DNA from: Candidatus Kaiserbacteria bacterium
GTDB lineage: Bacteria; Patescibacteriota; Minisyncoccia; Phycocordibacterales; UBA2100
Length of the DNA: 64,000 bases
NCBI GenBank assembly: GCA_016217925.1
Contig: JACRFK010000003.1
Span: 271,656 to 335,655, forward strand
Direction of reading: 5' to 3'
Shown here in pieces: positions 14,049 through 61,769 of the stretch. Made by a program: the position numbers and the translations under genes. The notes below the pieces were generated by a model, which saw only the letters and a program-made list of their open reading frames with translations, made no database searches and had not been told where the DNA came from. How positions within the stretch are numbered: the stretch's first letter is position 1; each line of letters opens with the position of its first letter.

Positions 14049-14106
14049 GGCTACCGCTCAACTGACTCCTTGCGGCTCTGGCTTTCAGGCACTTCTTCGG
14101 GTGCGG
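14049..14106 (-). repeat. Displaced duplicate of the rpoC 3' end (57 bp), candidate att-type direct repeat
   Basis: About 90% identical to 16391-16448. On the minus strand it encodes [17 protein letters not shown]-stop. All differences from the rpoC copy fall at third codon positions. Confidence 0.6.
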
Positions 14107-16390: not shown

Positions 16391-16448
16391 GGCTACCGCT
16401 CGACAGACTCCTTGCGACTCTGGCTTTCGGGCACTTCCACGGGTGCCG
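16391..16448 (-). repeat. rpoC 3'-terminal 57 bp, partner of the 14049-14106 direct repeat
   Basis: Encodes the rpoC C-terminal [20 protein letters not shown]. Confidence 0.6.
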
Positions 16449-19400
16449 CAGCGGCGAACTCAGCTTCCATTTGTTCTATCATCGCGTGCTTCTTGCTTCC
16501 CTTGAATCCGGTACCGGCGGGAATAAGGCGGCCAATGATGACATTTTCCTTGAGACCCACGAGGCGGTCCACGGCGCCCGAAACGGCGGCCTCGGCGAGT
16601 TTGCGCGGAGTGTTCTGGAAGGAGATGGCCGAAAGGAAGGACGCACGTGTGAGGGATACTTCGGTAATACCGAGCAGGAGCTGTTTGCCTTTAGCCGGCT
16701 CGCCTTCCACTTCTTTCTGCACTTTGTTGATACGTTCGAATTCGAAGTCGGCGACGATTTCCCCTGCGGAGACCCCCGTGTCGCCGGAAGTCGTGACGGA
16801 TACGCGCGAGAACATCTGTTTGACGATAACCTCCAAATGCTTGCGGCCGGTGGATACTCCCTGGAGCTCGTAGATGCGCGTGATTTCGTTGATGATGTAT
16901 TGCTGTGCACGCTCCTTGCCCGCGAGCAGGAAAAGCTCTTCGAGGTCGGCGGAGCCGTCGGTGAGGAAGTCGCCCTTTTCTACCTTGGCGCCCTTCTTCA
17001 CCAAGATGGTGCGGAGCGGATGCACGCGGTATTCGGTCTCTTTCTTTTGGGCTTTTGCGGTCTTGGCAAGTGAAGCGACATCCGGGACGATGGTGATGAC
17101 CGTCTCAGCTCCGTCCTTCTCGATATCGGCAATGATGCCCGTAACGCGCGAGATGGTGGCGGGGAGCTTGGGTGCGCGCGTCTCGAAGACTTCCTCGACG
17201 CGCGGCAGACCCATGGTGATGTCTCCGCCTGCGGTGGCGACGCCTCCCGTGTGGAAGGTACGCATCGTGAGCTGAGTTCCCGGCTCGCCGATGGCTTGCG
17301 CGGCGATGACGCCTATTGCTTCACCCACGTCCACAATCTCGCCGGTCGTGAGGTCCATGCCGTAGCACTTCTGGCAGACGCCGCGTGCGACTTTGCATGT
17401 CATAGGCGAGCGCACAGTAACTTCTGTCGCCTTGCTTTCTTCGACAGCTTTAGCATCGTCGCGATTCAAGAGGTGGTTGCGCTTTCCGCCGAAGGCGGAT
17501 CCGCCTCTGGCGGAGAAGCCCTCAATATCTGCGGCAAGTACGCGGCCGTTCACGCGGTCGGCAAAAGAGCCGCCGATGTTCTCTTTGCCGGGACGATTGA
17601 TGACGACCCCCTCTTTGGTGCCGCAGTCATTTTCGAGAACGACGACGTCGTGCGCGACGTCGAAGAGACGGCGTGTGAGATACCCGGCGCGTGCCGTGTT
17701 GAGCGCGGTGTCGGCAAGACCTTTGCGCGCACCGTGCGTCGAGATGAAGTATTCGATTGGGGTGAGACCTTCTTTCAAGCTAGAGGTGATGGGGAATTCG
17801 ATGATCTCTCCGCGCGGGTTGGTGATGAGGCCTTTCATACCCACCATTTGGTGAAGCTGGACGACGGAACCGCGGGCACCGGAAGTGATCATGTCGTGCA
17901 CGGGACCGGTGCGGTCGAGCGCGTCAACAACGTGCTTGCGCAATTCGCCGGAGACCTTGCCCCAGATCTCAACCGTCATGCGGCGGCGTTCGTCTTCAGT
18001 GAGAAGCCCTTGATTAAAGTTCTCGAGCTCTTTCGCCGCTTGTTCACGTCCCGTTTTTACCATCTCCTCCTTCACGCTTGGAATGACGATGTCCGAGATT
18101 GCCCAGGTGATACCGGCGTAGGTCGCATAGCGGAAGCCGAATGCTTTTATTTTGTCCAAAATGGCGGGGATGCCGTCGAGACTGTAATGCGTAACGAGAT
18201 TTTGCACCAAGGCGCCCATGCGCTTGTTGGTTATTTCTTCGTTCAAGTACGGGAAGTCGTTGGGAAGGACGGAGTTGAAGAGGAGGCGACCGACGGTCGT
18301 CTCGAAAACTTTGCCTTCGTATTGCCCGTATTTCTTATTTTCGGTCGGGAGCACCTTTATCTTGGCGCGCAAGTCCACCGCGCCAAAATCGTGCGCGGTA
18401 ATAGCGGCGTTAGTCGAAGGAAATGCGCTTCCCTCACCTTTCAGACCATCAACGGACTTCGTCATCCAGTAGCATCCCAAGACGATGTCGAGGAGCTTGG
18501 ATGCGACAACGACGTCGCCGCTTCCTGGCTTCAAGATGTTCTTATTGGCGGACATCATCATGCGCGCCTCCATCTGAGCGGCTTCGGAGAGCGGCACGTG
18601 GACGGCCATCGCGTCGCCGTCGAAGTCAGCGTTGTAGGCCGGACAGACGAGCGGGTGTACCTGGATTGCGTTGCCTTCGATTAAGACCGGGCGGAACGCC
18701 TGGATGGACTGGCGGTGCAGCGTCGGCGCGCGGTTCAAGAGTACGTACTTGTCTTTAATCGCTTCTTCGAGAATCGGCCACACTTCAGGAGCTTCGTCTT
18801 CGATAAGACGGCCCGCGCCGCGGATGTTGTAGGCGAGTTCGCGCGCAAGCAAGCCCTGAATGACGAATGGACGGAAAAGTTCGAGCACCATGTGCTTCGG
18901 AAGACCGCATTCGTCGAGTGCCAAGTCCGGACCGACGACGATGACGGAACGGCCCGAGTAGTCCACGCGTTTACCGAGCAGGTTCTGACGGAGATAGCCG
19001 TGCTTACCTTTGAGGTAATCGGCGAGCGATTTCAGCGCGCGGCGGCGGCCTCCGAGGATGCCCAAGACACCTGCGCCGCGGCGCATGGAATTGTCGAGGA
19101 GCGCGTCCACAGCTTCCTGCAGAATGCGCTTTTCGTTGCGGAGGATGACTTCCGGCGCGTGGATGGCGAGCAATCGCTTGAGGCGATTGTTACGGTTGAT
19201 GACGCGGCGGTAGAGGTCGTTGAGGTCCGACGATGCGTGACGGCCGCCTTCGAGGGCGACCATGGGGCGCAGCGCCGGCGGCACGACTGGAAGACGCGTC
19301 ATGAACATCCACTCCGGGCGCACACCCGCGCGCTGCAAGCTCTCGGCGAGGCCGAGGCGTTTGCGGAGTTTGTCGCGGTCCGCGGCACCCGAGTTTTCGT

Positions 19401-20130
19401 ACTCTTCCTTCACCTTCTTGATGAAGACGTTGATGTCGATATTTTTCAAAATACTGTAGAGGGCCTCGGCGCCGATAGCAGCGCGGAACATCGCGCCGTA
19501 TTTGACGGCAAAGAGGTGATACGCAGCCTCGTCGAGGACCACGCCCTGACGGATAGATTCGATCTCCTTCTTCGCTTTCGTCGCGCGCTCTTTGAGGTCG
19601 GTCTTTATTTCAGCAGTCGCGGCGGCTTTGTTCTTGGTCGCAAATTCATGCTCCAATTCCTTGAGAAGGCGCTCGCGTTCTTTCTCATCGACATGCGTGA
19701 CGATGTAGCCCGCGAAGTAGACGACCTTTTCCACTTCTGCAGCCGAAAGGCCGAGCATAAGCGCGATGCGCGAAGGAATACCGCGCAGGAACCAGATGTG
19801 CGAGACAGGGGTCGCCAAGTCGATGTGGCCCATGCGCTCGCGCCGGACGATGGCGCGGGTAATTTCGACACCGCATTTTTCACAGACGATGCCGCGGAAA
19901 CGGATGCCCCGGTATTTCCCGCAGTAACATTCGTAGTCTTTTTCAGGTCCGAAGACACGCTCGTCGAAGAGACCGTTCTTCTCGGGTCGCTGCGTGCGGT
20001 AGTTGATGGTCTCCGGCTTGGTTATCTCACCAAAACTCCACTCATGTACGCGGTCGGGAGAGGCGAGGCGCATTGCGACCGCTTCGAAGTCCTGTGGGAT
20101 GACGTCTTTTTTACGTTGCATAATTTTCAA
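16393..20130 (-). CDS. rpoC: DNA-directed RNA polymerase beta' subunit with in-frame mini-element
   Basis: [12 protein letters not shown] catalytic motif; zinc finger [20 protein letters not shown]. Insertion [13 protein letters not shown] at 17481-17520. Confidence 0.95.
17481..17520 (+). repeat. Family A mini-element copy in rpoC (variant)
   Basis: gctttccgccgaaggcggatccgcctctggcggagaagcc. Confidence 0.65.
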
Positions 20131-24113: not shown

Positions 24114-24851
24114 CGTTAATATTGGGAGGTTAAACCTCCGGAGATTCGTGGTAATCTTTCAGGATGGCAACACGTGCACCATGCGTGACGGAAGAATGGT
24201 ACCACTGTTACAACAGAGGCGTTGATAAACGGAAGGTTTTCGAGTCAAAAGCTGACTACGAACGCTTTATGGGGCTTTTATATGTTTCAAATGGAGATAG
24301 GACTGAGGCAATCTCGGACAGATATCGGAGAGATTTCCCCTCCCTCCTTGCAGAGGACCCGAAGGATCGGGGTGAGCCTCTCGTGGATATTGCCGCTTTT
24401 TCGCTGATGCCGACCCATGTGCACTTCGTGCTGCAACAACTTCAAGACGGAGGGATAGCACGATTCATGCAGAAAATATTTACCGCCTACACGATGCACT
24501 TCAATGCGAGGCGCGAGCGGACAGGAGCCTTGTTCGCGGGTACGTACAAAACGAAACATATCGACGATGACCGGTACCTCAAGAAAGTGATTCCGTACGT
24601 TATTTTGAACCCTGCGGAGTTGTTTGAACCGAAATGGAAACAAGGAAAATGCGATATCGGAAAGATGCGCACACAATTATTGGAATATCCGTACTCAAGT
24701 GTGAAAGAGTTCTTCAACAAAGATGCAACGGCCCAGAAAATTACCGGCGCAGGTATACGGGAATACTTTGACCGAATGCCCAATCTGACGGAAATGCTTG
24801 AAGACGCCCGCGACTACTACCGCGAGTATTCTCCGGAGGTTTAACCTCCGG
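24114..24851 (+). mobile_element. REPtron: REP hairpin + RAYT/IS200-like Y1 transposase gene + REP hairpin
   Basis: GGGAGGTTAAACCTCCGGAG at 24114-24133. Perfect 10-bp-stem hairpin CTCCGGAGGTTTAACCTCCGGAG at 24829-24851, which supplies the TAA stops of both convergent genes (RAYT and trmD). Confidence 0.65.
24164..24844 (+). CDS. REP-associated tyrosine transposase / IS200-like HuH Y1 transposase
   Basis: HuH motif LMPTHVHFVLQQ; catalytic Tyr block TGALFAGTYKTKHI; N-terminal WYHCYNRGVDKRKVF; C-terminal YVILNP. No TnpB partner. Confidence 0.75.
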   Translation: MATRAPCVTEEWYHCYNRGVDKRKVFESKADYERFMGLLYVSNGDRTEAISDRYRRDFPSLLAEDPKDRGEPLVDIAAFSLMPTHVHFVLQQLQDGGIARFMQKIFTAYTMHFNARRERTGALFAGTYKTKHIDDDRYLKKVIPYVILNPAELFEPKWKQGKCDIGKMRTQLLEYPYSSVKEFFNKDATAQKITGAGIREYFDRMPNLTEMLEDARDYYREYSPEV

Positions 24852-25548
24852 AGTTTTTGCGCCCTTTCTTCCACTTCTCTATTTCAGCGTGATTACCCGA
24901 GAGTAGGACCTTGGGAACGCGGTGTTTTCTTCCCTTCCATTCAAGCACTTCGGGGCGCGTATAGACTTCCGGGCTGGATACGCGACTCGCTTCCAGAGAT
25001 TCGGCTTTGCCCAAGACTCCTGGGACGTGCCGGGAAATGGCGTCTATCAGTGTTGTTGCAGGAAGCTCGCCGCCCGTAAGCACGTACGGGCCGACTGAGA
25101 CCTTCTTGGCCTTTCCTCCGAAGGAGGATCCGCCTCCGGCGGACAATACTTTAAAGACCCGCGCATCCACACCCTCATAGTGTCCGCAGATAAATAGAAC
25201 GTCTTTTTTCTTCGAAAGTTTCTTCGCCATCGCTTCATCGAATAATGCGCCGTCAGTCGCGAAGAATATCTTCTCCACTCCCTTCTTATTCCCTATCGCT
25301 TTCTTTACCGCGTTCAACATCGGCTCGGGCCGCAAAACCATACCTGGCCCTCCCCCGTACGGCCGACGATCCACGCGCATATCTTGCGTGCGGGAACTCT
25401 TGCCAATGAATCTTTTGGGGTCGTAGTAGGAAATCTTTATTTTCTTCGCGGCGATAGCACGACCAATGATAGAAGCCTTGAGATACGGCTCGATTGATTC
25501 CGGAAACAAAGTGATGATGTGAAAGTGAATCATAGTCCGCATTTCCAA
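24841..25548 (-). CDS. trmD: tRNA (guanine37-N1)-methyltransferase with in-frame mini-element
   Basis: SPOUT/TrmD motifs (IIGRAI..., ICGHYEGVD, GPYVLTGGELPA). Insertion SAGGGSSFGGKAKK at 25111-25148. C-terminal NSGG-stop is encoded by the REP hairpin. Confidence 0.85.
   Translation of the reverse strand: MEMRTMIHFHIITLFPESIEPYLKASIIGRAIAAKKIKISYYDPKRFIGKSSRTQDMRVDRRPYGGGPGMVLRPEPMLNAVKKAIGNKKGVEKIFFATDGALFDEAMAKKLSKKKDVLFICGHYEGVDARVFKVLSAGGGSSFGGKAKKVSVGPYVLTGGELPATTLIDAISRHVPGVLGKAESLEASRVSSPEVYTRPEVLEWKGRKHRVPKVLLSGNHAEIEKWKKGRKNSGG
25111..25148 (+). repeat. Family A mini-element copy in trmD
   Basis: ctttcctccgaaggaggatccgcctccggcggacaatac. Confidence 0.75.
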
Positions 25549-26137: not shown

Positions 26138-26539
26138 TTATGCGGAGGAGGGGGCTGGAGCTTCTGCGGCTGCTTCCTCCTTTTTTGGCTCTTCTGCGGC
26201 CTCCTCGGCAGGAGCTTCAGCGGCCGGAGCTACAGGGGCGGCTTCAGCTGCCACTTCTTCTTTAGCAGGCTCTTTGTATTTAGGAAGAACGTTTATCTTC
26301 TTTGCGTCGATGACTTTCAGCGATACGAGCATGTTGTGGACGGTGGCGGACGGCTGTGCGCCGACTGATATCCAGTACTTGATGCGCTCCGTGTTGAGTA
26401 CCCGCTTCTTGCTCTTGGGGTCGTAGGTGCCCACTTTGTCGACAAATTTTCCGGCCTTCGGGCTCGCGGTGTGTTCTACCACGACAATGCGGTAAGAAGG
26501 CGTATTGATGCGCCCGGTGCGTTGCATTCGTATCTTCAA
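26138..26539 (-). CDS. rpsP: 30S ribosomal protein S16 with Ala/Glu-rich C-terminal extension
   Basis: MLKIRMQRTGRINTPSYRIVVVEHTASPKAGKFVDKVGTYDP. Start taken at the internal Met of the ORF-track frame. Confidence 0.8.
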   Translation of the reverse strand: MKIRMQRTGRINTPSYRIVVVEHTASPKAGKFVDKVGTYDPKSKKRVLNTERIKYWISVGAQPSATVHNMLVSLKVIDAKKINVLPKYKEPAKEEVAAEAAPVAPAAEAPAEEAAEEPKKEEAAAEAPAPSSA

Positions 26540-26925
26540 CATAACTTGCCCCGTTAGATAATCAGATAATATTTGGCTAAGAGTCCAAAACTTGCACACC
26601 CCGAATAGTTTTCCCAGCAGCGTTAGATAGTCCGTATCTAACTGGGGTGTCGCGACACTCTAACAAACATTGACCCTCGACGCAATCTCTGTTTGACTGC
26701 TGTGGGAACCGGAGGGAGGTGAACCCAAATGAGTCCATTGACCTTGGCTCTGCTGCTGACGCCCATCCCGGCGGCCTTGCAGGCTTTCGGCTGGCTGTGA
26801 GCCAACGCGGCTGTCCGTACCAATTGCGGACAGCCGTCGTCTTTCATTTTGCAACCCGCTCCGCCTCTTCGAGTTTGACCCCGATGGAAAGCTTCGCTTC
26901 CAACGGGGCAGGCCGACAACAACGA

Positions 26926-29142
26926 CTACTTAGCGACCATTTCAGCTTCTTCTAACTTAACGGAGAGAAGTTTGGAAACCCCGTCCTGCCCCATGGTGAC
27001 ACCGTAGAGTTCACCGGCGGCACTCATCGTGGCCCTGTTGTGCGTAATGACGATGAGCTGCGACTTCACTCCCAACTCCTTTATCATGTCGGCGTAGCGG
27101 CGCGAGTTGGCCTCGTCGAGCGCGGCGTCCGTCTCGTCCAAAATAAGGAACGGCGGGGGATTCACTTGGCTCATAGAAAAGATGAGCGCGATGGAGGTGA
27201 GCGCGCGCTCTCCGCCGGAGAGCACGTCAAGTCCGCGGATTTTCTTGCGGGGGAGTGCGACGTCGATGGAAAGGCCGGCATACAACTCTTCCTCCTCGTC
27301 CAGAAATCCTTCCTCGTCGCCCTCGTCGATATCTTCGCCTCTGCCGCGTTTGATGCGACGAGGCTCTTCGACTTCGAGCTTGGCGTGGCCGCCGCCGAAA
27401 AGCTTCGCGAAGAAATTCTGCAACGCGACGTTGATGTGCTTGATGCCTTCGGTAAACCGCGCGTCGATCGTTTTTTCGAGGTCGGCGATGATGTCGTGAA
27501 GTTTCTCCGCCGATGCTTCGAGGTCGGCAAGCTCGCGCGCGAGGAATTCTTCGCGCTCTTTGGTCTGGTTGAATTCCCTCACGACCGCATCCCCGCCCCC
27601 TATCCCCGATTCCTCAATCTTTATTTTGAGGCGTTCTATCTCGCGCCGGCGCTTTTCCTGACGCTGCCGGTCCTCTTCGAGCAACGAACCCTCCGGTATC
27701 TCCGATTTTTCCCAACCGTGCACGGCGGCTCCGATGAGCGCGATGCCCTCGCGCACCTCCTCCTCAAATCTGCTACGAAGCGTGGCGATGTTGGCACGGG
27801 CGGCTTGCACTCCTCCAAGCTTGCTTTGCGCCTCGCGAACACCTGATTCCAATTCCATGAGGTCGCGCTCGGCGGTAAATCCCGCCTCGCGCGCTTCCGC
27901 TATCTTTTTTCGCAAAGTCTCCAACTCGCCCGCCAATGCCGATTCTTGGGTGCGCACGCGCTCAAGCGATTTCGCGAGAGCCTCTACCTGCTGGCGCACC
28001 TCTTCATTGGTCTCGGGTGCTGCGCCGGAGAGGCCTTCGACAAAGGCTTTGATGCGCTCGCGTATCTGTGCGAGTCTGCTTTTGATGGCGGCAATATCAT
28101 TCTCGCGCTCTGTCTCGGCAATAGTTTCCGAGAGCTCGCGCGTGAAGCTCCGCACGTGCGGCACGGGGACTATCTGCTCGACTGTCACCGTGTTGGCCTC
28201 CAAGGCACCCTCGGCGCGACCGAGCTCACGGGTAAGCTGTTCGCTTTCGCGCCGCGCCTCGGAGAGCTTTGCCTCACGCTCAGAGACTTTCCCCTGGAGT
28301 TCGGCAATCACGTGCTCGGCCGAGCCGGAGCGTTTGCCGCGCGCTTCGGCGACGCGGCCGCCCAATTGCTTCAATTCCGATTCTTGCGCCCGCACTTCGT
28401 GGAGCAGCCGCGCGTCCTCCTGCGTTATCCACGCATTTTCACGCGCGAGATATTCATTCAATTTCACCGCGAGCTCATCTTTCATCTCGCGCGCTTTCTC
28501 TATCTTTTCCACCTGCGTACGCAGGAAATTCAGGTGCGGCGCAAGTTCTCTGCGAAGCGACTTGGTCTTATCGATATTCACTCCCGTCTCTGCGAGCTTG
28601 CGTTCGCTTTCAGCTTTTTTGTGCTGGTAGAGTTTGAGGCCGAGCGCGTCTTCCACCATCTCCCGGCGCTCACGGGGAGTGGCATTCAATATGCGGTCCG
28701 CTTCGCCCTGCGAAATTATCTGGTAGCCCGAACCGCCGATATTGGCACCCGCAAGCAGGCGTATCACGTCTTTGAGCCGCACCACCGTCCCATTAAGCAA
28801 GTACTCATTTTGGCCGTCGCGATACACCACGCGCTCCACGGTGACCTCCTTGAAATCGAGGTCCAAAAGGCGTTTGGAATTATCAAAAACGACCTTCGCC
28901 CCCGCGCGATTCATACGCGGCAGTGAAGGCGAGCCGCCCCAGATAAGGTCTTCGCCGCGCTTGGAGCGCATGGATTTCATGGACTGTTCGCCCAAGACGA
29001 AGCGGAATGCCTCGGCGACGTTACTCTTGCCGGAGCCGTTGGGCCCGACGACCGCGGTAATGGGCGAACCGAAAAGCAGTTCGGTCTTTTTGCCGAAGGA
29101 TTTGAATCCCGAAAGCTCGATGGATGTAAGACTGAGGAACAT
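26926..29142 (-). CDS. smc: SMC-like chromosome segregation ATPase (short, ~738 aa)
   Basis: Walker A (GPNGSGKSN), coiled-coil, signature LSGGERALTSIAL, Walker B (FLILDETDAALD). Start at MFLSLTSIELSGFKSF. Confidence 0.75.
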   Translation of the reverse strand: MFLSLTSIELSGFKSFGKKTELLFGSPITAVVGPNGSGKSNVAEAFRFVLGEQSMKSMRSKRGEDLIWGGSPSLPRMNRAGAKVVFDNSKRLLDLDFKEVTVERVVYRDGQNEYLLNGTVVRLKDVIRLLAGANIGGSGYQIISQGEADRILNATPRERREMVEDALGLKLYQHKKAESERKLAETGVNIDKTKSLRRELAPHLNFLRTQVEKIEKAREMKDELAVKLNEYLARENAWITQEDARLLHEVRAQESELKQLGGRVAEARGKRSGSAEHVIAELQGKVSEREAKLSEARRESEQLTRELGRAEGALEANTVTVEQIVPVPHVRSFTRELSETIAETERENDIAAIKSRLAQIRERIKAFVEGLSGAAPETNEEVRQQVEALAKSLERVRTQESALAGELETLRKKIAEAREAGFTAERDLMELESGVREAQSKLGGVQAARANIATLRSRFEEEVREGIALIGAAVHGWEKSEIPEGSLLEEDRQRQEKRRREIERLKIKIEESGIGGGDAVVREFNQTKEREEFLARELADLEASAEKLHDIIADLEKTIDARFTEGIKHINVALQNFFAKLFGGGHAKLEVEEPRRIKRGRGEDIDEGDEEGFLDEEEELYAGLSIDVALPRKKIRGLDVLSGGERALTSIALIFSMSQVNPPPFLILDETDAALDEANSRRYADMIKELGVKSQLIVITHNRATMSAAGELYGVTMGQDGVSKLLSVKLEEAEMVAK

Positions 29143-29261
29143 CCCGTTAGAAGTAGGAAGCTTGCGCTTCCGACTCGTTAGCTGGCGTTGGTAATAACTC
29201 GACCAGTGTAAAGCATACCGCGGATAAACCACGTTTCGAACTTCCGCGACTTCTAACGGGA
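29142..29261. repeat. ~120-bp unit bounded by perfect 13-nt inverted repeats TCCCGTTAGAAGT / ACTTCTAACGGGA at the smc 5' end
   Basis: The left arm overlaps the smc start codon. Related to the CCCCGTTAGAGGC hairpin family. Confidence 0.45.
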
Positions 29262-29582
29262 AACATTGACTTCTATTGTATCAAAATATTGGAGCCCGGA
29301 TGTCTGCCCGGGCTCCACGCGTAGCACACGCTGCTACTTCAGAATGCGTCGATGCGGCTGTGCACGAACATCGCCACCAACGTGGGGATCGCGACGCAAA
29401 GTGATTGAACAACCTCAACGGGGTCGGGACCGACTCGGGGGGTCCCCAGAAACCCAAGATTGGCGGGTTTTGGATACCCCGCTGTTGCATCCGGAACATC
29501 GGCATAGTCGCGTTGATGTCGCATCATTTCCTCCGAAGAGACTTTAAGGGATGCGGTGTGCAATCCCGCTTTTAGAATATGC

Positions 29583-31228: not shown

Positions 31229-31376
31229 ACAAGAGCTACTTCACGAAGCAGTATACCCCATGAGATAACGTTTCCAATTGTATAAGGTGTTGATGAGTAT
31301 TGATTGAAGATTCGCGTGAGTTGTGGAAATCAAAAAAAGATATCTCACGGGGCAGGCACAACAAAAACCGCGGAGT

Positions 31377-33457: not shown

Positions 33458-36400
33458 ATGAGTGCGCGCGAATTCGTCCATTTGCATACTCACTCGCACT
33501 ATTCGCTCCTCGAAGCACTGCCCAAAATCCCCGAGCTTGTCGCTGCGGCTGCCAAAGATGGCCAGACAGCGCTTGCGCTCACCGACAACGGCAACCTCTA
33601 CGGCGCGATAGATTTCTACAAAGAGTGTAAGGACAATAGCGTGAAGCCGATTATCGGCGTCGATTTCTATGTCGCCCCGCGTACCCGCGCGCAAAAGGAG
33701 CATCGCATCGATGAACACACCTCGCGACTCGTGCTTTTGGCGAAGAACGAAACGGGGTATCGCAACCTGATGCAGCTTGTCTCGCGCTCGCACCTCGAAG
33801 GCTTTTATTACCGCCCGCGCATAGACCGCGAACTCATCGAAGCGCACCGCGAAGGACTCGTCGCGATACTTCCCTCTTTTGGCGGCGAACACGCCAAGCA
33901 CCTTCGCGAACACAATGCCGGGAAAGCGCGGGAGTGCGTGGATTGGCACAAAAAAATATATGGCGATGACTTGTTCCTGGAAATAACCCGTCACCCGGAG
34001 ATAGACGGACACGAGGGTCAGATGCAGGAGATTATTTCGCTCGCGCGCGGGGCCGGTGTCCCGCTTGTGGCAGCGCACGACACGTACTATCTGAAGAAGG
34101 AAGACGCGCTCGCGCGCGAGCTGGTGCGCAAAATCCGGAGCGCCGGCGTACTGAATCGCGACTTTGAGCAGGGCGCCCCCGATTTCTCATTCATGCCGCG
34201 CGCGCAGATGGAAGAGTCTTTCAAGGATATTCCGGAGGCACTTGAAAATAGCGCGCGCATTGCCGAGAGATGCGAGCTGGAGCTGAAGCTAGGGCTCTGG
34301 GTCTTCCCCGATTTTCCCATTCCCGCCGGAAGTAGCGCAAATGACGAGTTGCGAGCGCTCGCGCAGGCAGGATTCAAGGAGCGCGGCGTCGCCGAGACCT
34401 CCGAGAACAAAGAGCGCGTTGGCTATGAGCTTTCCATAATCGGAAGCAAGGGGTACTCGCCGTATTTTCTCGTCGTTGCGGACCTCTTGCGCCACGCACG
34501 CGAGAAGGGAATTCTCACCAATACTAGAGGCAGCGCGGCGGGCTCTCTCGTCTCGTACCTCTCCGGCATCACGACGGTAAACCCCATCGAATATCAACTC
34601 CCCTTCGAGCGATTTTTGAATCCCGAGCGACCGAGCCCGCCCGATATCGACATGGACCTCGCCGACAACCGCCGCGACGAGCTCATCGCGTATGTGAGGG
34701 AAAAATACGGGGAAGAAAAAGTGGCGCAGATAGGCACTTTCGGCACCATGATGGCGCGCGCGGCCGTGCGCGACGTTTCGCGCGCGCTCGGACATCCCTA
34801 CAGCCTCGGCGACACGATTGCCAAGCTCATTCCATTCGGCAAGCAGGGATTCCCCGTGACTATTGCGGGAGCTTTGGAGGAAGTGCCCGAGCTCGCGCAG
34901 CTGTATAAGAAAGACGCGGATGCGCGCGAAGTTCTCGATCTCGCGCAAAAAGTCGAAGGCAATGCGCGCCACGTCGGCGTCCACGCCGCGGGAGTCGTTA
35001 TTGCGCCGACCGCCGTCACCGACTACTCGCCTATTCAAATAGACCCCAAGGGCAATCACATCATCACGCAGTACGACATGTACGCGATTGAAGAAGCGGG
35101 GCTTCTGAAATTCGATTTCCTCGGACTTACCAACCTCTCGGTCCTTGCCGACGCGGTCGCGCGCGTGCGCGAGCGCTTGCACGTAGACATTGATCTCGAC
35201 AAGCTCCCGCTCGATGACACAAAGACTTTCGAAATGCTCTCACGCGGCGAGACGCTCGGAGTATTTCAACTCGCAGGCGGCGGCATGACGGCCTACCTCG
35301 TCGACCTAAAGCCGACCGCCATCCACGACATCAACGCGATGGTCGCGCTCTACCGCCCGGGCCCGATGGCTTTCATCCCCGCATACATCGAACGCAAAAA
35401 AGATCCGAAGCTCGTGAAATACCTCGACCCGCGTATGGAGATTATTCTCAAGAATTCCTACGGCGTCATTACCTATCAGGACGACGTGCTGGAGATTGCT
35501 ATCAAGATAGCCGGATACTCGTGGCTCGAGGCCGATAAATTCAGGAAAGCGATGGGGAAGAAGATACCGGCGGAAATGAAAGCGCAGAAAGAAAAGTTCA
35601 CCAAAGGCTGTGTGGCGGGCGGCATGAAGAAAGAGGCCGTACAGCAGTTGTGGGAACAGATAGAAACATTTGCCGCATACGGCTTCAACAAAGCGCACGC
35701 CGCTTCTTACGGCAACTTGGCGTATAAAACGGCTTACATGAAGGCTAATTTCCCTGTCGACTATATGGCGGCGGTGCTCACTGCGGACGCCGGCGACGTC
35801 GAAAAGATTTCGGAGGTCGTCGCCGAGTGCAAACGCATGGGTATCAATGTATTGCCGCCGTCGGTCAGTGAGAGTTACGGCAATTTTACCGTCGTAGATG
35901 AAAAAAATATTCGCTTTGGTCTGTATTCGATAAAGAACTTCGGCACGGGTGTCGGAGATTCCATCATCGCCGCAAGGAAAGAAGGAGGACCATTTAAGGA
36001 CATCGCCGATTTTCTCTCCCGCATCCTGGACCCCGTTAGAGGCGACGCCTCTAACGGGGCGGGCAAGAATCTCAACAAAAAATCCCTGGAATCTCTCATC
36101 CAGTGCGGCGCGTTTGACGACATGAGGCTCTCCCGCGGCGAGCTCATGGAGAACATCGAGACTCTTCTCACCTTCCACCGCGAGCATCTTAGTTCACCGA
36201 AAGACCAAAGCTCACTCTTCGGTACGATGAGCGCCCCGCGTCTGTCGCTCTCACTGCAACGCGCAAAGCCCGTCGCGCTCGAGACGCTCTTGGGATGGGA
36301 AAAAGAATTGCTCGGCCTCTATATTTCCGGACATCCGCTCGACAAACACAAAGCGAAATTCGCCGATACAAAAAAGAGCATCAAATACGCAAAAGAACAT

Positions 36401-38222: not shown

Positions 38223-39635
38223 TTAGGTGCGAGTGATAATGATGCGCGGTGCCTCACCCTCTTTCGAGTGCATGACCACCATCGAGTCCATCGTTGATTT
38301 GGCCGTCGGCGCGACCGGAAGATTCTCCAGCGCGTCTATCTGGATTGGGCTCGGCGTCATCGTTTCGAGAGGAGCCTCCTCAACTTTCGTTTCGACAGGC
38401 GCCGGCACCGTGGCTTCGTGCATCGTCACTTTGCGTGAACCGAGCATCGAACCTACGAGGGTCATTGCACCTCCCTTGTAGTAGACGACGAGGTAGGCAC
38501 CGGCTATCGCGAAGGAGATGAGCGAGAGCCAGTAGATAGCGTTGCCGAAGGGTCCTGCATCGAAGCCCGTGTACGGGATCTGCGAGAGCGAGACGTAGGA
38601 GCCCTGGACCGTGACATACGTGCTGCAGGTATTCGTGCCGCCGTAGCCCGAGACCGTGAGTGTGTAGGTCTTGGAGACATTCGGGCGCACCGCGAGCGAG
38701 CCGTTGGTGGATACCACGCCGATGCCATCAGAGAGCCAAGCGCTCGTGGCACCGCTTGAAGACCACGTGAGGTACGCAGCCTGTCCATTCACTATCGAGC
38801 TCGGAGAAGCCGTGATGGTGCAGTACGCGTTGCTGTAGGTCGGGTACGTCGGATAAATCGGATACGTGGGGTACGTCGGGTACACAGGGTAGGTCGGGTA
38901 GACCGGCTGTTGCTGGTAGACGTACTGTATCGGGTACGTGACGCCTGTGTACACGACAGGAGTGACCGGAGCCGAGTTTACGTTCGTGTTGACGTTGTTG
39001 TTATTGTTCGTGTTCACGATGTTAATCGGACCTCCACCCTGTTGCTGTTGCTGCTGTTGCTGTTGCTGAACCGGGCGCTGTTGCTGAGGAGCAGGATAGC
39101 TCGGGTACGAGGGAGCGTAAGAGGTCGACGGAGCGCGGAAGGAGAACGGCATACTCGGAGTAGGTTTGTAGTTCGGCTGCGAGTAGCTCTGAGTGTCGTA
39201 CGAGCGTTCGGAATACGCTACACCATCTTCGTAGATGTAGTCACAATCGCACTCGTTGTCCCACGTAGTACCTTCGTAGTTCCACGTTGGGTTTTCATCC
39301 CACGTAGTACCTTCGTAGTTCCACGTTGGGTTTTCATCCCACGTAGTTCCTTCGTAGTTCCATGTCGGATTTTGATCCCAAGTAGTACCTTCGTAGTTCC
39401 ACGTCGGAGAATCCGCATAACCAAGGTACCCACCGTTGGTGTCACCACCGGCGTCCCAAGTAGTGCCGTCGTAGCTCCATGTCGGCGTGTCACCACCGGA
39501 GTCCCACGTAGTGCCTTCGTAGTTCCACTCCTGTGCGAAGGCAGACGTAGGGATTGCGGCAAATGCGCCAAAAGCGAGCACCGCCACAGCCAGAAAAAAG
39601 ACAGAAACTGAACTTACTTTTGATGCATTTGTCAT
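38223..39635 (-). CDS. Secreted/surface repetitive protein (signal peptide; PTWNYEGTTWD repeats; polyQ/polyN; YPTYP repeats; Ig-like domain; C-terminal TM)
   Basis: Signal peptide MTNASKVSSVSVFFLAVAVLAFGAFAAIPTSAFA. 39-nt DNA tandem repeats at 39240-39480. IPYTG (LPXTG-like) precedes the C-terminal TM helix. Confidence 0.6.
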   Translation of the reverse strand: MTNASKVSSVSVFFLAVAVLAFGAFAAIPTSAFAQEWNYEGTTWDSGGDTPTWSYDGTTWDAGGDTNGGYLGYADSPTWNYEGTTWDQNPTWNYEGTTWDENPTWNYEGTTWDENPTWNYEGTTWDNECDCDYIYEDGVAYSERSYDTQSYSQPNYKPTPSMPFSFRAPSTSYAPSYPSYPAPQQQRPVQQQQQQQQQQGGGPINIVNTNNNNNVNTNVNSAPVTPVVYTGVTYPIQYVYQQQPVYPTYPVYPTYPTYPIYPTYPTYSNAYCTITASPSSIVNGQAAYLTWSSSGATSAWLSDGIGVVSTNGSLAVRPNVSKTYTLTVSGYGGTNTCSTYVTVQGSYVSLSQIPYTGFDAGPFGNAIYWLSLISFAIAGAYLVVYYKGGAMTLVGSMLGSRKVTMHEATVPAPVETKVEEAPLETMTPSPIQIDALENLPVAPTAKSTMDSMVVMHSKEGEAPRIIITRT

Positions 39636-41151: not shown

Positions 41152-41709
41152 TTATTTTGCGAATGAGATGGCGCGGCCTACCTCGACGGCATGGCCGACT
41201 TCTACCGCGTGCCCGACGTTGACGGCATGGCCGACGCTCTTAGCGCGCCCCACGGATACCGCGTGACCAACGGATACGGCGTGGCCGACATTTACCGCAT
41301 GCCCTACCGAGACCGCATGGCCGGTGGGAACGAGCGCAAAGAGTTTACCGGGTCCAAAGAGGTCTACGGCGTGTGCGATGTCTACGATGTGCCCGACTTC
41401 TACGGGATGCGCGACGTTAACGGGGTGCGCGACGTTAACTCCATAACCGACGCCGATGGGATAACCGACATTCACACCATGACCAACGTTTACCCCATGC
41501 CCTACATTCACACCATAGCCGACACCTATGGGATAGCCGGTAGACGCACCGTATCCGGGCGACGTGGGATATCCAGCATCCGTCGGGTATCCCAAGGGAA
41601 CCGCCACGCCATACGTTTCTATTTCAGGCGGATCGGTGATGGCGGCGTATGAAAGCGGCGCCAAGCCGACGCAAATAATTATGGCGAGTGTTACAAGCCC
41701 TTTTTTCAT
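41152..41709 (-). CDS. Secreted histidine-rich hexapeptide-repeat protein
   Basis: Signal peptide, then (V/A)GHAVN-type repeats ~20 times (VGHAVNVGHAVSVGHAV...), i.e. 18-nt DNA tandem repeats. Confidence 0.55.
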   Translation of the reverse strand: MKKGLVTLAIIICVGLAPLSYAAITDPPEIETYGVAVPLGYPTDAGYPTSPGYGASTGYPIGVGYGVNVGHGVNVGHGVNVGYPIGVGYGVNVAHPVNVAHPVEVGHIVDIAHAVDLFGPGKLFALVPTGHAVSVGHAVNVGHAVSVGHAVSVGRAKSVGHAVNVGHAVEVGHAVEVGRAISFAK

Positions 41710-60011: not shown

Positions 60012-60929
60012 TTATTGACGTTGATTTGTCGCCCGGAGTTCATTCAAAAATACCTCCGCCTGCTTATCTGCCGGGATTTTGTCGGTCGGACCTTTTCCAG
60101 GCGGGTTGCCGTGCCAACGATAGTCACCCTCTATCTCTCGGATACCCTTGCCGGGAATCGTGTGTGCCAAGATGAGCGTCGGTTTCTCACGAATTGCTTT
60201 CGCTTCGTCGCATGCCGCGATGAATTGCGGGATGTTGTGGCCATCCACCTCGATGACATGCCAATTGAATGCCTCGTATTTATCGCGCAAGGGCTCCAGC
60301 GGCATGATGTTTTCCGTGTCGCCGTCTATTTGGATGTTGTTGCGGTCCATGATGCCGACGAGATTTGCGAGCCGGTACTTGCCCGCGAACAGTATCGCCT
60401 CCCACGTATTTCCCTCCTCGTGTTCGCCGTCGGACATGACGCAATACACACGAAAGTCTCCCGAACGTTTGCCGCCTGCCCCGTTAGAGGCCGAAGGCTC
60501 TCTAATGAGGTCCATGCGCGCGGCGTAGGCGTAGCCGGATGACTGTGAAAGCCCTGAGCCAAGCGGCCCCGATGTCGTCTCCATGCCGGGCAACATATCG
60601 CGCTCGGGGTGTCCCTGGAGCCGCGAGCCGAATTTGCGCAGCGTCAGGCATTCCTCTACAGGAAAATATCCCGCGTGCGCCATCGCCGCGTAGCGCACGG
60701 GGACGATGTGGCCGTTCGAAAGGATGAGGCGATCACGCTCCGCCCAATCGGGATTTTTCGGGTCATGCTTCAAGACGTTAAAATAGAGCGCGGTAAAAAT
60801 ATCCGCCATGCCCAAGGGCCCCGCGGTGTGCCCCGAACCCGCAGCGGTGAGCATTTCGACTATCGTCTGTCGTATCGCGTTGGCTTTTGTCGAAAGCTCT
60901 CGTACTTCTTCGTCCGTCAGCGGCACCAT
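60012..60929 (-). CDS. tkt: Transketolase, N-terminal half (TPP-binding) with degenerate family-B hairpin insertion
   Basis: GHTAGPLGMADI, GHIVPVRYA, GSLGQ-like GPLGSGLSQSSG. Inserted PSASNGAGGKRSGD at 60479-60510. Confidence 0.8.
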   Translation of the reverse strand: MVPLTDEEVRELSTKANAIRQTIVEMLTAAGSGHTAGPLGMADIFTALYFNVLKHDPKNPDWAERDRLILSNGHIVPVRYAAMAHAGYFPVEECLTLRKFGSRLQGHPERDMLPGMETTSGPLGSGLSQSSGYAYAARMDLIREPSASNGAGGKRSGDFRVYCVMSDGEHEEGNTWEAILFAGKYRLANLVGIMDRNNIQIDGDTENIMPLEPLRDKYEAFNWHVIEVDGHNIPQFIAACDEAKAIREKPTLILAHTIPGKGIREIEGDYRWHGNPPGKGPTDKIPADKQAEVFLNELRATNQRQ

Positions 60930-60933
60930 TGCC

Positions 60934-61671
60934 CTATTCTAGCGCACTTTCTGCGAGGGATTTGAGCTGTTCGTAGGCAACTTTCGGATTTTCCGCCTTG
61001 GTAATGGCGGAACCGACTCCGAACCTACGGGCTCCGGCACGCGTGAGTTCCGCGATATTTTTCATCGAGACTCCGCCGTCCACGCTGATGGTGAGCGTGG
61101 GATACTTTGAATGTAATTCTCCAATGCGTGCAATCGCCCGTATATCGTACGGGGCGCCCTGTTTGCCGAGTGTTGCGATAGACATCACCTGCACGACGTC
61201 GCACGCGGGTATCATGGGTTCGAGGACCGGGAGCGGCGTATCGAGAAGGATGGCAAGCCCGACCTCTCGTGCCCCCGCACTGCGCCACGCGCCGAGCGCT
61301 TCGAGTATTTCTTTTTCATCCGCAAAGGCCTCGACGTGTCCGATGATGCGCTGTATTCCGGCCTGCGCGAGCCGTAAACCCAGCTCGCCCGGTTCTTCCA
61401 CCATCATGTGCGTTTCGTAATTGATATCCCGGACAAACGGAGGTTGGAGCGAACCGTCGGCAAGGCTCTCCAGCTCGGCCCACTGCCCTTCACCGTACGG
61501 CCACGAGCGCTCCTGCGTGAAAAGTCCGTCGCTAATATCAAGCTGCACCCACTCTGAAAAATCTGCGAAAAATGCTGAACGCCGAGAAAGCTCCGCCAAA
61601 TCAGGCGGACAGGTGTTCGTGGGGACGATCTCTATCACCCCGTTAGAGGCAGGTCGCGGTCGTTTAGACAT
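60934..61671 (-). CDS. rpe: Ribulose-phosphate 3-epimerase; N-terminus overlaps a family-B inverted-repeat arm
   Basis: TISVDGGVSMKNI, GSAITKA and MSIATLGKQG blocks of the RPE barrel. Start uncertain. Confidence 0.7.
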   Translation of the reverse strand: MSKRPRPASNGVIEIVPTNTCPPDLAELSRRSAFFADFSEWVQLDISDGLFTQERSWPYGEGQWAELESLADGSLQPPFVRDINYETHMMVEEPGELGLRLAQAGIQRIIGHVEAFADEKEILEALGAWRSAGAREVGLAILLDTPLPVLEPMIPACDVVQVMSIATLGKQGAPYDIRAIARIGELHSKYPTLTISVDGGVSMKNIAELTRAGARRFGVGSAITKAENPKVAYEQLKSLAESALE

Positions 61672-61754
61672 ACCGGTTATGGGATGTAACTTCTAATGTC
61701 GCAAAATTCGCGATAAAGCGCAGCATGCTCACGCGACCGCGGCCTCTAACGGGG
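61637..61754. repeat. ~118-bp unit bounded by inverted repeats CCCCGTTAGAGGC / GCCTCTAACGGGG at the rpe 5' end
   Basis: Terminal arms are identical to the dnaE hairpin arms. The inner part carries a further imperfect inverted repeat (AGGTCGCGGTCG / CGCGACCGCGG). Confidence 0.5.
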
Positions 61755-61769
61755 ATCATGGAAAACCGC

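What the first reader, a model, noticed from the sequence alone, without database searches (positions are those of the whole stretch)
36031..36059. Second hairpin family (CCCCGTTAGAGGC..GCCTCTAACGGGG): in-frame in dnaE and tkt, and as ~120-bp inverted-repeat-bounded units at the 5' ends of smc and rpe
dnaE contains a perfect 13-bp-stem, 3-nt-loop hairpin at 36031-36059 that encodes DPVRGDASNGAG. The N-terminal transketolase half contains the same left arm followed by a degraded right arm (60479-60510), encoding SASNGAGGK.

The identical arms also bound a ~118-bp unit at 61637/61742 that overlaps the rpe start region (...RPASNGV...). A sister pair, TCCCGTTAGAAGT / ACTTCTAACGGGA, bounds a ~120-bp unit at 29142-29261; its left arm overlaps the smc start codon (..TSNG-M). 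A mini-version, GTTAGATA-gtccg-TATCTAAC, sits at 26597-26617 upstream of rpsP.

The shared arms suggest a MITE-like family. Some members are solo hairpins, as if inner sequence was lost or excised. These solo hairpins are tolerated inside essential proteins and add an ASNG(A)G motif.
Basis: seen in the sequence. Interest (0 to 1): 0.6.

Follow-up and report, generated by a model that had tools for sequence, protein, structure and literature searches.

The report
Tiny frame-preserving palindromic transposon (mini-MITE)
The hairpin in dnaE is a 29-bp mobile palindrome, two transposon ends back to back, that leaves a 4-bp target duplication, occurs in several bacterial phyla, and adds 33 bp per insertion, so it can sit in-frame in essential genes and even split a start codon.

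Summary
CCCGTTAGA occurs 8 times in the window against 0.36 expected by chance, at the stated places apart from one wrong coordinate.

It is a non-autonomous transposable element (MITE). Its ends are 5'-CCCCGTTAGA...TCTAACGGGG-3', and it makes a 4-bp target-site duplication.
- Public genomes gave more than 120 loci in Patescibacteria, Omnitrophota, Planctomycetota, Nitrospirota, Desulfobacterota and others.
- 68 of 133 copies have a perfect 4-bp direct repeat, mostly TTTA/TAAA.
- The commonest size is 29 bp, so 29+4 = 33 bp, or 11 codons.

Ortholog alignments show the DnaE and Tkt segments are insertions, missing from the closest relatives. The 117-bp (rpe) and 120-bp (smc) units landed inside the start codons (duplications TGAT and TGTT). 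The element's last base plus the duplicated TG rebuilds a GTG or ATG.

The solo hairpins are the basic mobile unit, not decayed long units. No transposase was found. Tests for an IS1380-type or a Y1/RAYT partner were negative or inconclusive. The two contigs labelled archaeal look like mis-binned bacterial DNA. I found no description of this family in the searchable literature.

The parts
36031..36059 (.). 29-bp solo element (13-bp arm, 3 nt, 13-bp arm) in-frame in dnaE. With 4 bp of decayed target duplication it makes the 33-bp, 11-codon insert PVRGDASNGAG (DnaE residues about 859-869, inside the HHH_6 domain).
   Evidence: The insert is absent from the 94%-identical ortholog, where the empty site reads ATCCCCGAC|AAAAAT.
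36027..36030 (.). Left flank TGGA. This is CGGA in relative L004 and is the presumed left copy of the target duplication.
36060..36063 (.). Right flank CGGG, the presumed right copy of the target duplication, now decayed (3 of 4 match L004's CGGA).
   Evidence: All filled alleles share SNG-A-[G/S].
60479..60510 (.). Degraded solo element in the N-terminal transketolase half. It is part of a 15-codon insert, LIREPSASNGAGGKRSG against GK in the closest orthologs.
   Evidence: A more intact copy sits at the same site in L153: CCCCGTTAGAGGGCGAAGCCTCTCTAACGGGG. The AlphaFold model places residues 141-155 in a low-confidence loop.
61638..61754 (.). 117-bp unit with perfect 13-bp inverted-repeat ends, inserted into the rpe start codon.
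   Evidence: Orthologs start directly with ATGATCGAAATC or ATGATAGAAATA.
61634..61637 (.). Target-site duplication, proximal copy: ATCA on the + strand, TGAT in gene sense. Its TG plus the element's terminal G (61638) makes a new GTG at 61638-61636.
61755..61758 (.). Target-site duplication, distal copy. Together with 61759 it holds the original rpe ATG (61759-61757, - strand). That ATG now opens a 31-codon upstream ORF.
61669..61671 (-). ATG inside the unit, in frame with rpe. It gives MSKRPRPASNG-VIEIV... and overlaps the stop of the upstream ORF (ATGTCTAA).
   Evidence: A gene caller used this start on an independent contig (L235, 245 aa).
29142..29261 (.). 120-bp unit (ends TCCCGTTAGAAGT / ACTTCTAACGGGA) inserted into the smc start codon.
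   Evidence: Empty sites in three relatives read ...tacaat(n7)caATGTTCCTCAG.
29138..29141 (.). Target-site duplication, proximal copy: AACA on the + strand, TGTT in gene sense. The element's terminal A (29142) plus TG makes the present smc ATG (29142-29140).
29262..29265 (.). Target-site duplication, distal copy. With 29266 it holds the original smc ATG (29266-29264, - strand). That ATG now opens a 39-codon upstream ORF, which ends at TAA 29149-29147, 4 nt before the new ATG.
26549..26647 (.). Decayed 99-bp composite unit in front of rpsP (whose ATG is at 26533, - strand). It includes the inner mini-hairpin at about 26620-26647.
   Evidence: The empty site in relatives reads gtgtcgcgacatATGTTG; the window reads gtgtcgcgaca|unit|caagttATGTTG.

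Best explanation
The hairpins are copies of a very small non-autonomous DNA transposon (a mini-MITE).

Anatomy
- A copy is little more than two inverted transposon ends of about 13 bp, 5'-CCCCGTTAGA(nnn), joined by a 3-nt spacer. The commonest size is 29 bp.
- Longer members (40, 50 and 75-136 bp) have the same ends.

How it moves (inferred)
- A transposase supplied in trans, not yet identified, recognises the ends.
- It cuts the target with a 4-nt stagger and joins the element in.
- Repair of the gaps leaves a 4-bp direct repeat, with a preference for TTTA/TAAA and more generally YNNR.

Effect in coding sequence
- 29+4 = 33 bp, so an insertion keeps the reading frame.
- Two of the three phases are free of stop codons. 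They read PVR..SNG or PLE..LTG.
- Copies survive in surface loops of essential proteins such as DnaE and Tkt.

This window
- Two long members landed in the start codons of smc and rpe. They survived because the element's last base plus the duplicated TG rebuilt an ATG or GTG.
- The original ATG now heads a short upstream ORF that runs through the element. It ends 4 nt before the new smc start, or overlaps an in-frame ATG for rpe.
- I infer, without proof, that this upstream ORF helps keep translation going by opening the strong hairpin and coupling termination to re-initiation.

Shown: the ends, the target duplications, the filled and empty sites, the distribution and the size bias. Inferred: the type of enzyme and the translational coupling.
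For: 1. Non-random repeats at the stated sites.
2. Genome-collection scan. My own estimate for equiprobable bases is about 17 chance hits. The hits are in many bacterial phyla. There are also 21 viral contigs.
3. Target duplication. 68 of 133 non-redundant copies have a perfect 4-bp flanking direct repeat, and 21 more match at 3 of 4. With a 5-bp window only 1 of 133 matches, so the duplication is exactly 4 bp. The tetranucleotide differs from copy to copy.
4. Longer units. Units of 75-136 bp with the same ends and perfect duplications occur in many loci. The window's rpe unit has ATCA/ATCA and its smc unit has AACA/AACA.
5. Small units move as such. Identical 29-, 40- and 50-mers occur at different sites with different duplications in different genomes.
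6. Filled versus empty sites among close Kaiserbacteria:
   - dnaE
   - tkt
   - smc and rpsP
   - rpe
7. Frame bias. Length+4 is divisible by 3 in 89 of 149 copies (p = 4e-11). The same holds for 60 of 119 copies outside long ORFs.
8. In-frame copies. 29 of 151 copies lie in-frame in long ORFs, using only the two stop-free phases.
9. The Tkt insert lies in a low-confidence loop between a helix and a strand.
10. Upstream ORFs and rebuilt start codons are read directly from the sequence.
11. No Rfam family matches.
Against: - No autonomous copy was found. I looked for the same ends around a transposase gene in about 1.1 Mb of fetched loci and in the window. The mobilising enzyme and the cut-and-paste mechanism are therefore inferred.
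- The dnaE and tkt copies lack a perfect duplication (TGGA/CGGG and TGGA/CAGG). For them, transposition is argued from insert size (29+4 = 33) and from one relative that has CGGA/CGGG.
- The dnaE insert is scattered on the DnaE tree, needing at least 5-7 changes of state. This requires repeated precise loss, recombination between lineages or re-insertion, and I could not tell which.
- The search pattern fixed the 10 terminal bases, so their apparent invariance is partly built in by the search.
- Some labelled hosts are doubtful. The contigs labelled archaeal look bacterial.
Confidence: 0.82

Rival explanations
1. REP/REPIN-like elements moved by a Y1 (HUH) tyrosine transposase of the RAYT / IS200 type, acting on single-stranded hairpins.
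For: The genome encodes a Y1_Tnp protein at window 24164-24844. A relative carries a Y1_Tnp element exactly between the pilin-like gene and rpe, where the window has the 117-bp unit (L152). An Omnitrophota locus has one 750 bp from a copy (L026). The elements are short palindromes, as REPs are.
Against: The three Y1 genes are flanked by other hairpins, not by CCCCGTTAGA arms. The window gene has GGAGGTTTAACCTCC. L152 has GGGGACATGTCCCC. L026 has GGGGACACATCCC. Y1 transposition inserts next to one fixed tetra- or pentanucleotide and makes no duplication (established knowledge of IS200/IS605). Here the 4-bp flanks differ from copy to copy yet match on both sides. No GTAG or CGTC tag is present.
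Confidence: 0.07
2. A selected cis-acting structure, such as an RNA leader, a terminator or a protein-binding palindrome, conserved for its function rather than spread by mobility.
For: The three long units all lie just upstream of genes in the same orientation and fold strongly (-55 and -47 kcal/mol, z = -6.5 and -4.3).
Against: The closest relatives lack them at the same genes. The interiors are unrelated. Copies occur inside coding sequence and on either strand. They carry target duplications. No Rfam match was found even at E<=1. The position at the gene start is explained by insertion into the start codon.
Confidence: 0.04
3. A conserved protein motif (ASNGAG), or convergent low-complexity coding, with the palindrome as a by-product.
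For: The peptide PVRG.ASNGAG recurs in DnaE, Tkt and proteins of other phyla.
Against: The same DNA occurs in non-coding positions and in a second reading frame (PLE..LTG). Most orthologs lack the segment. The Tkt segment is predicted to be a disordered loop.
Confidence: 0.02
4. An assembly or sequencing artefact that creates palindromes.
For: All the data come from metagenome assemblies.
Against: The same insertion at the same site appears in independent assemblies from JGI, ENA, NCBI and Logan (L001/L002, L004, L153, L235). It also appears in a closed genome (L029). Copies keep reading frames open.
Confidence: 0.01

Closest known systems
Rickettsia palindromic elements (RPEs)
   Same: Selfish palindromic DNA in small, gene-dense genomes. 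It is often inserted in-frame in essential protein-coding genes, adds a peptide compatible with the fold, and is patchy among relatives (review PMC10969869).
   Different: RPEs are about 100-150 bp and are confined to Rickettsia and its relatives. Here the basic unit is 29 bp, has clear inverted-repeat ends and a 4-bp target duplication, and occurs in several bacterial phyla.
Classical bacterial MITEs, e.g. Correia/NEMIS elements of Neisseria
   Same: Non-autonomous, with inverted-repeat ends plus a target duplication, many copies, often co-transcribed with the downstream gene. For Correia elements no cognate transposase is known either (my own knowledge).
   Different: Those are 100-155 bp with a TA duplication and are limited to one genus. 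Prokaryotic MITEs are usually given as 50-800 bp (PMC11602168), and most copies here are below that range. That may explain why MITE finders miss them.
REP / REPIN elements with RAYT transposases
   Same: Short (20-40 bp), high-copy palindromes. RAYT-like Y1 genes are present in this genome and in relatives.
   Different: REPs are extragenic, carry a GTAG or CGTC tag (PMC3733652), flank their RAYT gene and have no target duplication. None of these holds here.
IS1380 family / piggyBac superfamily (as a possible source of the transposase)
   Same: Ends of the form 5'-CC(C)...GG(G)-3' and short 4-5-bp A/T-rich duplications. I confirmed CC..GG ends and 5-bp duplications on two IS1380 members (TTTAT and GATAG). 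The IS1380-piggyBac link is in the literature.
   Different: The ends of ISEcp1, IS1678 and a Lactiplantibacillus member (CCTAGATTC, CCTGAATWATTC) do not resemble CCCCGTTAGA. No IS1380-like gene lies near any copy.

Membership tests
MITE (non-autonomous DNA transposon) | Terminal inverted repeats | tested here: met
   Perfect 13-bp arms at dnaE and rpe, and 13 bp with T/A ends at smc. The same ends occur in more than 120 loci.
MITE (non-autonomous DNA transposon) | Target-site duplication of fixed length | tested here: met
   68 of 133 copies have a perfect 4-bp repeat, against 1 of 133 for 5 bp. The window has ATCA/ATCA and AACA/AACA.
MITE (non-autonomous DNA transposon) | Small size with no coding capacity of its own | tested here: met
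   24-136 bp, with a mode of 29 bp.
MITE (non-autonomous DNA transposon) | Insertion polymorphism (filled and empty sites) | tested here: met
   Empty sites were found in close relatives for dnaE, tkt, smc, rpsP and rpe.
MITE (non-autonomous DNA transposon) | A cognate autonomous element with the same ends | tested here: inconclusive
   None was found in about 1.1 Mb of loci or in the window. Whole genomes could not be searched.
REP/REPIN-RAYT | RAYT (Y1) gene flanked by the same repeat | tested here: not met
   Three Y1 genes were found, and all are flanked by other hairpins.
REP/REPIN-RAYT | No target duplication; fixed tetranucleotide tag | tested here: not met
   Variable, matched 4-bp flanks and no GTAG or CGTC tag.
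Rickettsia palindromic elements | In-frame insertion in protein-coding genes | tested here: met
   DnaE, Tkt and 29 of 151 copies overall.
Rickettsia palindromic elements | Size of about 100-150 bp and sequence similarity to RPE families | tested here: not met
   The size feature is not met, because the in-frame copies are 27-50 bp. Sequence comparison with RPE consensus sequences was not run.
IS1380-derived MITE | CC...GG ends and a 4-5-bp duplication | tested here: met
IS1380-derived MITE | Ends similar to those of an IS1380-family member, or such a transposase nearby | tested here: inconclusive
   Four family members and 80 metagenome loci were examined, and none had the arm. The metagenome scan returned only close relatives of ISKpn23 (62% identity or more), so most of the family went unsampled.

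The most novel reading that the evidence does not exclude
An undescribed superfamily of 'ends-only' transposons, widespread in uncultivated bacteria of groundwater and sediment: Patescibacteria, Omnitrophota, Planctomycetota, Nitrospirota and Desulfobacterota. The unit of transposition is a 29-bp palindrome. Its length (3n-4) has been shaped so that insertion plus the 4-bp duplication keeps reading frames. It would then be a steady source of 11-residue loops in essential proteins of gene-dense genomes, moved by a transposase of a type not yet linked to it.
Probability: 0.4. Interest if true: 0.75.

Novelty: new variant of a known kind. Interest (0 to 1): 0.64.

Why it matters
- **Smaller transposable units.** If a 29-bp palindrome is itself a transposable unit, the lower size limit for bacterial transposons is about half what MITE surveys assume (50 bp). 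Such elements would be missed systematically.
- **A source of protein insertions.** The family offers a concrete mechanism for many short lineage-specific insertions in essential proteins of reduced genomes such as the CPR. It also gives a marker (PVR..SNG or PLE..LTG) for spotting them.
- **Gene starts.** The start-codon insertions at smc and rpe show how a gene can survive disruption of its start, by rebuilding the start codon from the duplication. Each also gains a translated upstream ORF. This can be tested with transcript and translation reporters.
- **Horizontal spread.** Identical 29-mers in MAGs of different phyla and in viral contigs point to recent horizontal spread. If binning errors are excluded, these copies could serve as a tracer of DNA exchange in subsurface communities.

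Tried and rejected
1. **Known RNA families.** Rfam gave nothing at gathering level for the whole window, and nothing at E<=1 for 26400-29400. The only tRNA is unrelated.
2. **A shared structured RNA.** Aligning the three long units showed homology only at the ends, so no covariance model was built.
3. **Autonomous copies.**
   - I searched all loci for arm pairs 60-3500 bp apart, with and without matching flanks.
   - Candidate intervals held pilin-like, outer-membrane, metabolic or glycoside-hydrolase-like ORFs, not transposases.
   - Orphan arms gave nothing.
   - Clustering ORFs of 220 aa or more across the loci gave no shared transposase.
   - The ten large window ORFs I scanned with Pfam include no transposase; the window's one transposase-like gene is the Y1_Tnp at 24164-24844.
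4. **The IS481-type element in L004.** Its ends are unrelated.
5. **IS1380 hypothesis.**
   - I fetched ISEcp1 and three distant family members.
   - tblastn against all loci found nothing.
   - The one metagenome scan, run with an IS1380 alignment, returned only ISKpn23-like elements without the arm.
6. **Y1/RAYT hypothesis.** Rejected on the flanks and on the variable duplications.
7. **Archaeal occurrence.** The two contigs labelled archaeal carry a che operon or a TonB-domain protein and are probably mis-binned, so I dropped the claim.
8. **Literature.** Searches for the arm sequence and for in-frame or CPR palindromic elements found nothing relevant. The P. gingivalis 77-bp inverted repeat that contains CCCCGTTAGA was not pursued.
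9. **Extending the window.** Exact-protein look-ups to reach beyond the window ends failed, or returned only a 3.6-kb contig.
Full report
**1. The observation**

The window is a Candidatus Kaiserbacteria (Patescibacteria/CPR) contig. Its DnaE is 100% identical to an NCBI Kaiserbacteria protein from a 376-kb contig.

The hairpin at 36031-36059 is exactly as described: CCCCGTTAGAGGC-GAC-GCCTCTAACGGGG, in-frame in dnaE. The core CCCGTTAGA occurs 8 times in 64 kb against 0.36 expected, and no shuffle reached 8.

The other sites were also found:
- a degraded copy in the N-terminal transketolase half, 60479-60510;
- a 117-bp unit, 61638-61754, at rpe;
- a 120-bp unit, 29142-29261, at smc.

The 'mini-version' is at 26622-26642, not 26597-26617. 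It is one end of a decayed 99-bp unit, 26549-26647, upstream of rpsP.

**2. The elements are mobile**

Both perfect long units are flanked by 4-bp direct repeats: ATCA/ATCA at rpe and AACA/AACA at smc.

A scan of one genome per species for CCCCGTTAGA-N(1-31)-TCTAACGGGG stopped at its 120-locus limit. I estimate about 17 chance hits for equiprobable bases.

The flanks of the hits behave like target-site duplications:
- 68 of 133 non-redundant copies have a perfect 4-bp flanking direct repeat.
- 21 more match at 3 of 4 positions.
- A 5-bp window matches in only 1 of 133.
- The tetranucleotide varies from copy to copy. TTTA and TAAA dominate, followed by TCAA/TTGA, TTCA/TGAA, CTAA and CGAG/CTCG.

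This pattern is the mark of a staggered-cut transposition. It does not fit insertion next to one fixed sequence.

Units of 75-136 bp with the same ends and perfect duplications occur in many loci.

The size distribution peaks sharply at 29 bp (49 of 150 copies). Identical 29-, 40- and 50-mers occur at different sites with different duplications in different genomes. The small hairpin is therefore a transposing unit in its own right.

**3. Filled and empty sites in close relatives**

*DnaE.* The 11-residue insert is absent from the 94%-identical ortholog and from most of 120 homologs. It is present in seven. At the DNA level:
- empty site: ATCCCCGAC|AAAAAT
- filled site: ATCCTGGAC|CCCGTT...GGGGCGGGC|AAGAAT

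The insert is 33 bp, that is 29 bp plus 4. One relative keeps flanks CGGA/CGGG, so the duplication has decayed by one base.

*Tkt.* The closest orthologs read ARMD-GK-DFRV. The window has 15 extra residues. Six other homologs carry the insert, one of them with a nearly intact hairpin. An AlphaFold model puts residues 141-155 in a low-confidence loop between a helix and a strand.

*smc.* Three relatives read ...TGATACAAT(n7-8)ATGTTCCTCAG. The window reads caATGTT|120 bp|TGTTCCTCAG.

*rpe.* Relatives start ATGATCGAAATC or ATGATAGAAATA. The window reads ccATGAT|117 bp|TGATAGAGATC.

*rpsP.* Relatives read gtgtcgcgacatATG. The window has the 99-bp unit at that point.

**4. Insertions into start codons**

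In smc and rpe the 4-bp target included the TG of the ATG. After insertion, the copy of the duplication next to the gene is preceded by the element's last base:
- A+TG gives the present smc ATG (29142-29140);
- G+TG gives a GTG for rpe (61638-61636).

The protein N-termini are unchanged (MFLSL..., [M/V]IEIV...).

The old ATGs now open upstream ORFs that run through the elements:
- At smc the upstream ORF has 39 codons and ends at the TAA of the right arm, 4 nt before the new ATG.
- At rpe it has 31 codons, and its stop overlaps an in-frame ATG at 61671.

In the relatives, a conserved extended -10-like box (TGnTACAAT) lies 7-8 nt before the smc ATG. This suggests a leaderless mRNA, although the simple promoter scan found no full sigma-70 match.

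I infer that the leaderless upstream ORF is still translated. Translation would open the strong hairpin (-47 to -55 kcal/mol) and couple to the rebuilt start. This step is not shown.

**5. Frame preservation**

Length+4 is divisible by 3 in 89 of 149 copies (p = 4e-11). The same is true of 60 of 119 copies outside long ORFs.

29 of 151 copies lie in-frame in long ORFs. They use only the two stop-free phases, PVR..SNG or PLE/PLD..LTG. The third phase reads TAG or TAA.

The family therefore behaves like the Rickettsia palindromic elements, but at one fifth of their size.

**6. Distribution**

The labelled hosts are mainly Patescibacteria, Omnitrophota (including a closed genome), Planctomycetota, Nitrospirota, Desulfobacterota and Elusimicrobia. 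There are also 21 viral contigs.

Some labels are independently plausible. For example, L041 encodes Planctomycetes-type prepilin-like proteins.

The two contigs labelled archaeal encode a che operon or a TonB-domain protein. I treat them as mis-binned and make no claim about archaea.

Subfamilies tend to be lineage-specific. There is a 50-mer in CPR and a 40-mer in Desulfobacterota. One 29-mer is identical in contigs with different phylum labels and in viral contigs.

**7. The enzyme is unknown**

No pair of arms around a transposase gene was seen.

*IS1380/piggyBac-like transposases.* The ends (CCCC...GGGG) and the short A/T-rich duplication recall this group. I confirmed CC..GG ends and 5-bp duplications on two IS1380 members. 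Their end sequences differ from CCCCGTTAGA, however. The metagenome scan returned only close relatives of ISKpn23, none with the arm. This test is inconclusive.

*Y1 (RAYT-like) transposases.* Such genes exist in the window (24164-24844), in a relative at the rpe site (L152) and in L026. Each is flanked by a different hairpin. Variable matched duplications also do not fit the Y1 mechanism.

**8. What remains unexplained**

The dnaE insert is scattered over the DnaE tree, although all filled alleles share the same altered right flank (SNG-A-[G/S]). That points to one origin followed by repeated precise loss or recombination.

A different 8-residue insert (P-S-T-x-L-x-x-G) occupies the same DnaE site in nine other lineages. 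A similar peptide sits in the Tkt loop of one homolog. Its DNA is not palindromic.

**9. Verdict**

This is a real, mobile, very small MITE family with a 4-bp duplication and frame-preserving length. I found no description of it in the searchable literature.

The direction of descent is probably the reverse of what was proposed: the solo hairpin is the basic unit.

Noticed in passing
window 24164-24844 (+), flanks 24121-24150 and 24832-24860: A Y1_Tnp (IS200/RAYT-like) gene of 226 aa. It is flanked on both sides by GGAGGTT(T)AAACCTCCGGAG hairpins. These resemble the core CCTCCGGAGG of the window's other hairpin family, so this may be a REP-RAYT pair.
   Followed up: partly
window 5522, 11797, 12578, 13139, 17477, 25106, 44296, 56525 (about 41 nt each): The 'first' hairpin family: eight copies of a double hairpin, TTTCCTCCGGAGGAGGATCCGCCTCCGGCGGA. 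Their flanks and coding context were not analysed.
   Followed up: no
window 8849-10429 (+): A 526-aa ORF with a reverse-transcriptase domain (RVT_1). It lies in the lowest-GC stretch of the window (47% against about 56%). No group II intron RNA was reported by Rfam at gathering level.
   Followed up: no
DnaE homologs P0005, P0026, P0027, P0031, P0034, P0036, P0044, P0095, P0109, P0118; DNA at L146 and L147; Tkt homolog P0164: A second, non-palindromic 8-residue insert (P-S-T-x-L-[GR]-[AT]-G) occupies exactly the DnaE site that holds the hairpin. It is scattered over the tree (about 9 changes of state). A similar peptide occurs in the Tkt loop. The site looks like an insertion hot spot. The origin of this insert is unknown.
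   Followed up: partly
L152:1639-2503: In a relative, a Y1_Tnp element sits between the pilin-like gene and rpe. It is bounded by a perfect 47-bp direct repeat and by inverted GTAACGGGGACAGGCAC arms. The repeat contains ACCTGCCTCTAA...TAACGGGG, which resembles an interrupted arm of the hairpin family.
   Followed up: partly
window 29262-29290; L001, L003 and L004 upstream of smc; window and L003 upstream of rpsP: The smc gene, and probably rpsP, appear to be leaderless or nearly so. A conserved TGnTACAAT or TACAGT box lies 7-10 nt before the ATG, with no Shine-Dalgarno sequence.
   Followed up: partly
L055 and L064: Contigs binned as Aenigmatarchaeota and Methanosarcinales encode a CheB/CheY/CheD/CheR/MCP operon and a TonB-domain protein, respectively. 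They are probably mis-binned bacterial contigs.
   Followed up: yes
window 41170-41524 and 39220-39527 (ORFs 41152-41709 and 38223-39635, - strand): Two coding repeat arrays, one with an 18-nt period and one with a 39-nt period. The 470-aa ORF has no Pfam match.
   Followed up: no
window 14049-14104 and 16391-16446: A 56-nt direct repeat, 89% identical, with the copies 2.3 kb apart. One copy lies at the 3' end of the large ORF 16393-20130.
   Followed up: no
window 26899-26915, 31343-31360; L003:5449: The motif TC[CT][AC]ACGGGGCAGG recurs, and the tkt copy is followed by the same GGGGCAGG. These may be old decayed arms or a preferred target context.
   Followed up: no
L125, L127, L130, L132, L140 (viral contigs): A 29-bp copy with inverted rather than direct flanks (AAGC/GCTT). 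It lies in-frame (PPLDN[GD]NLTG) near the N-terminus of ORFs that reach about 2400 aa in two of these phage contigs.
   Followed up: no
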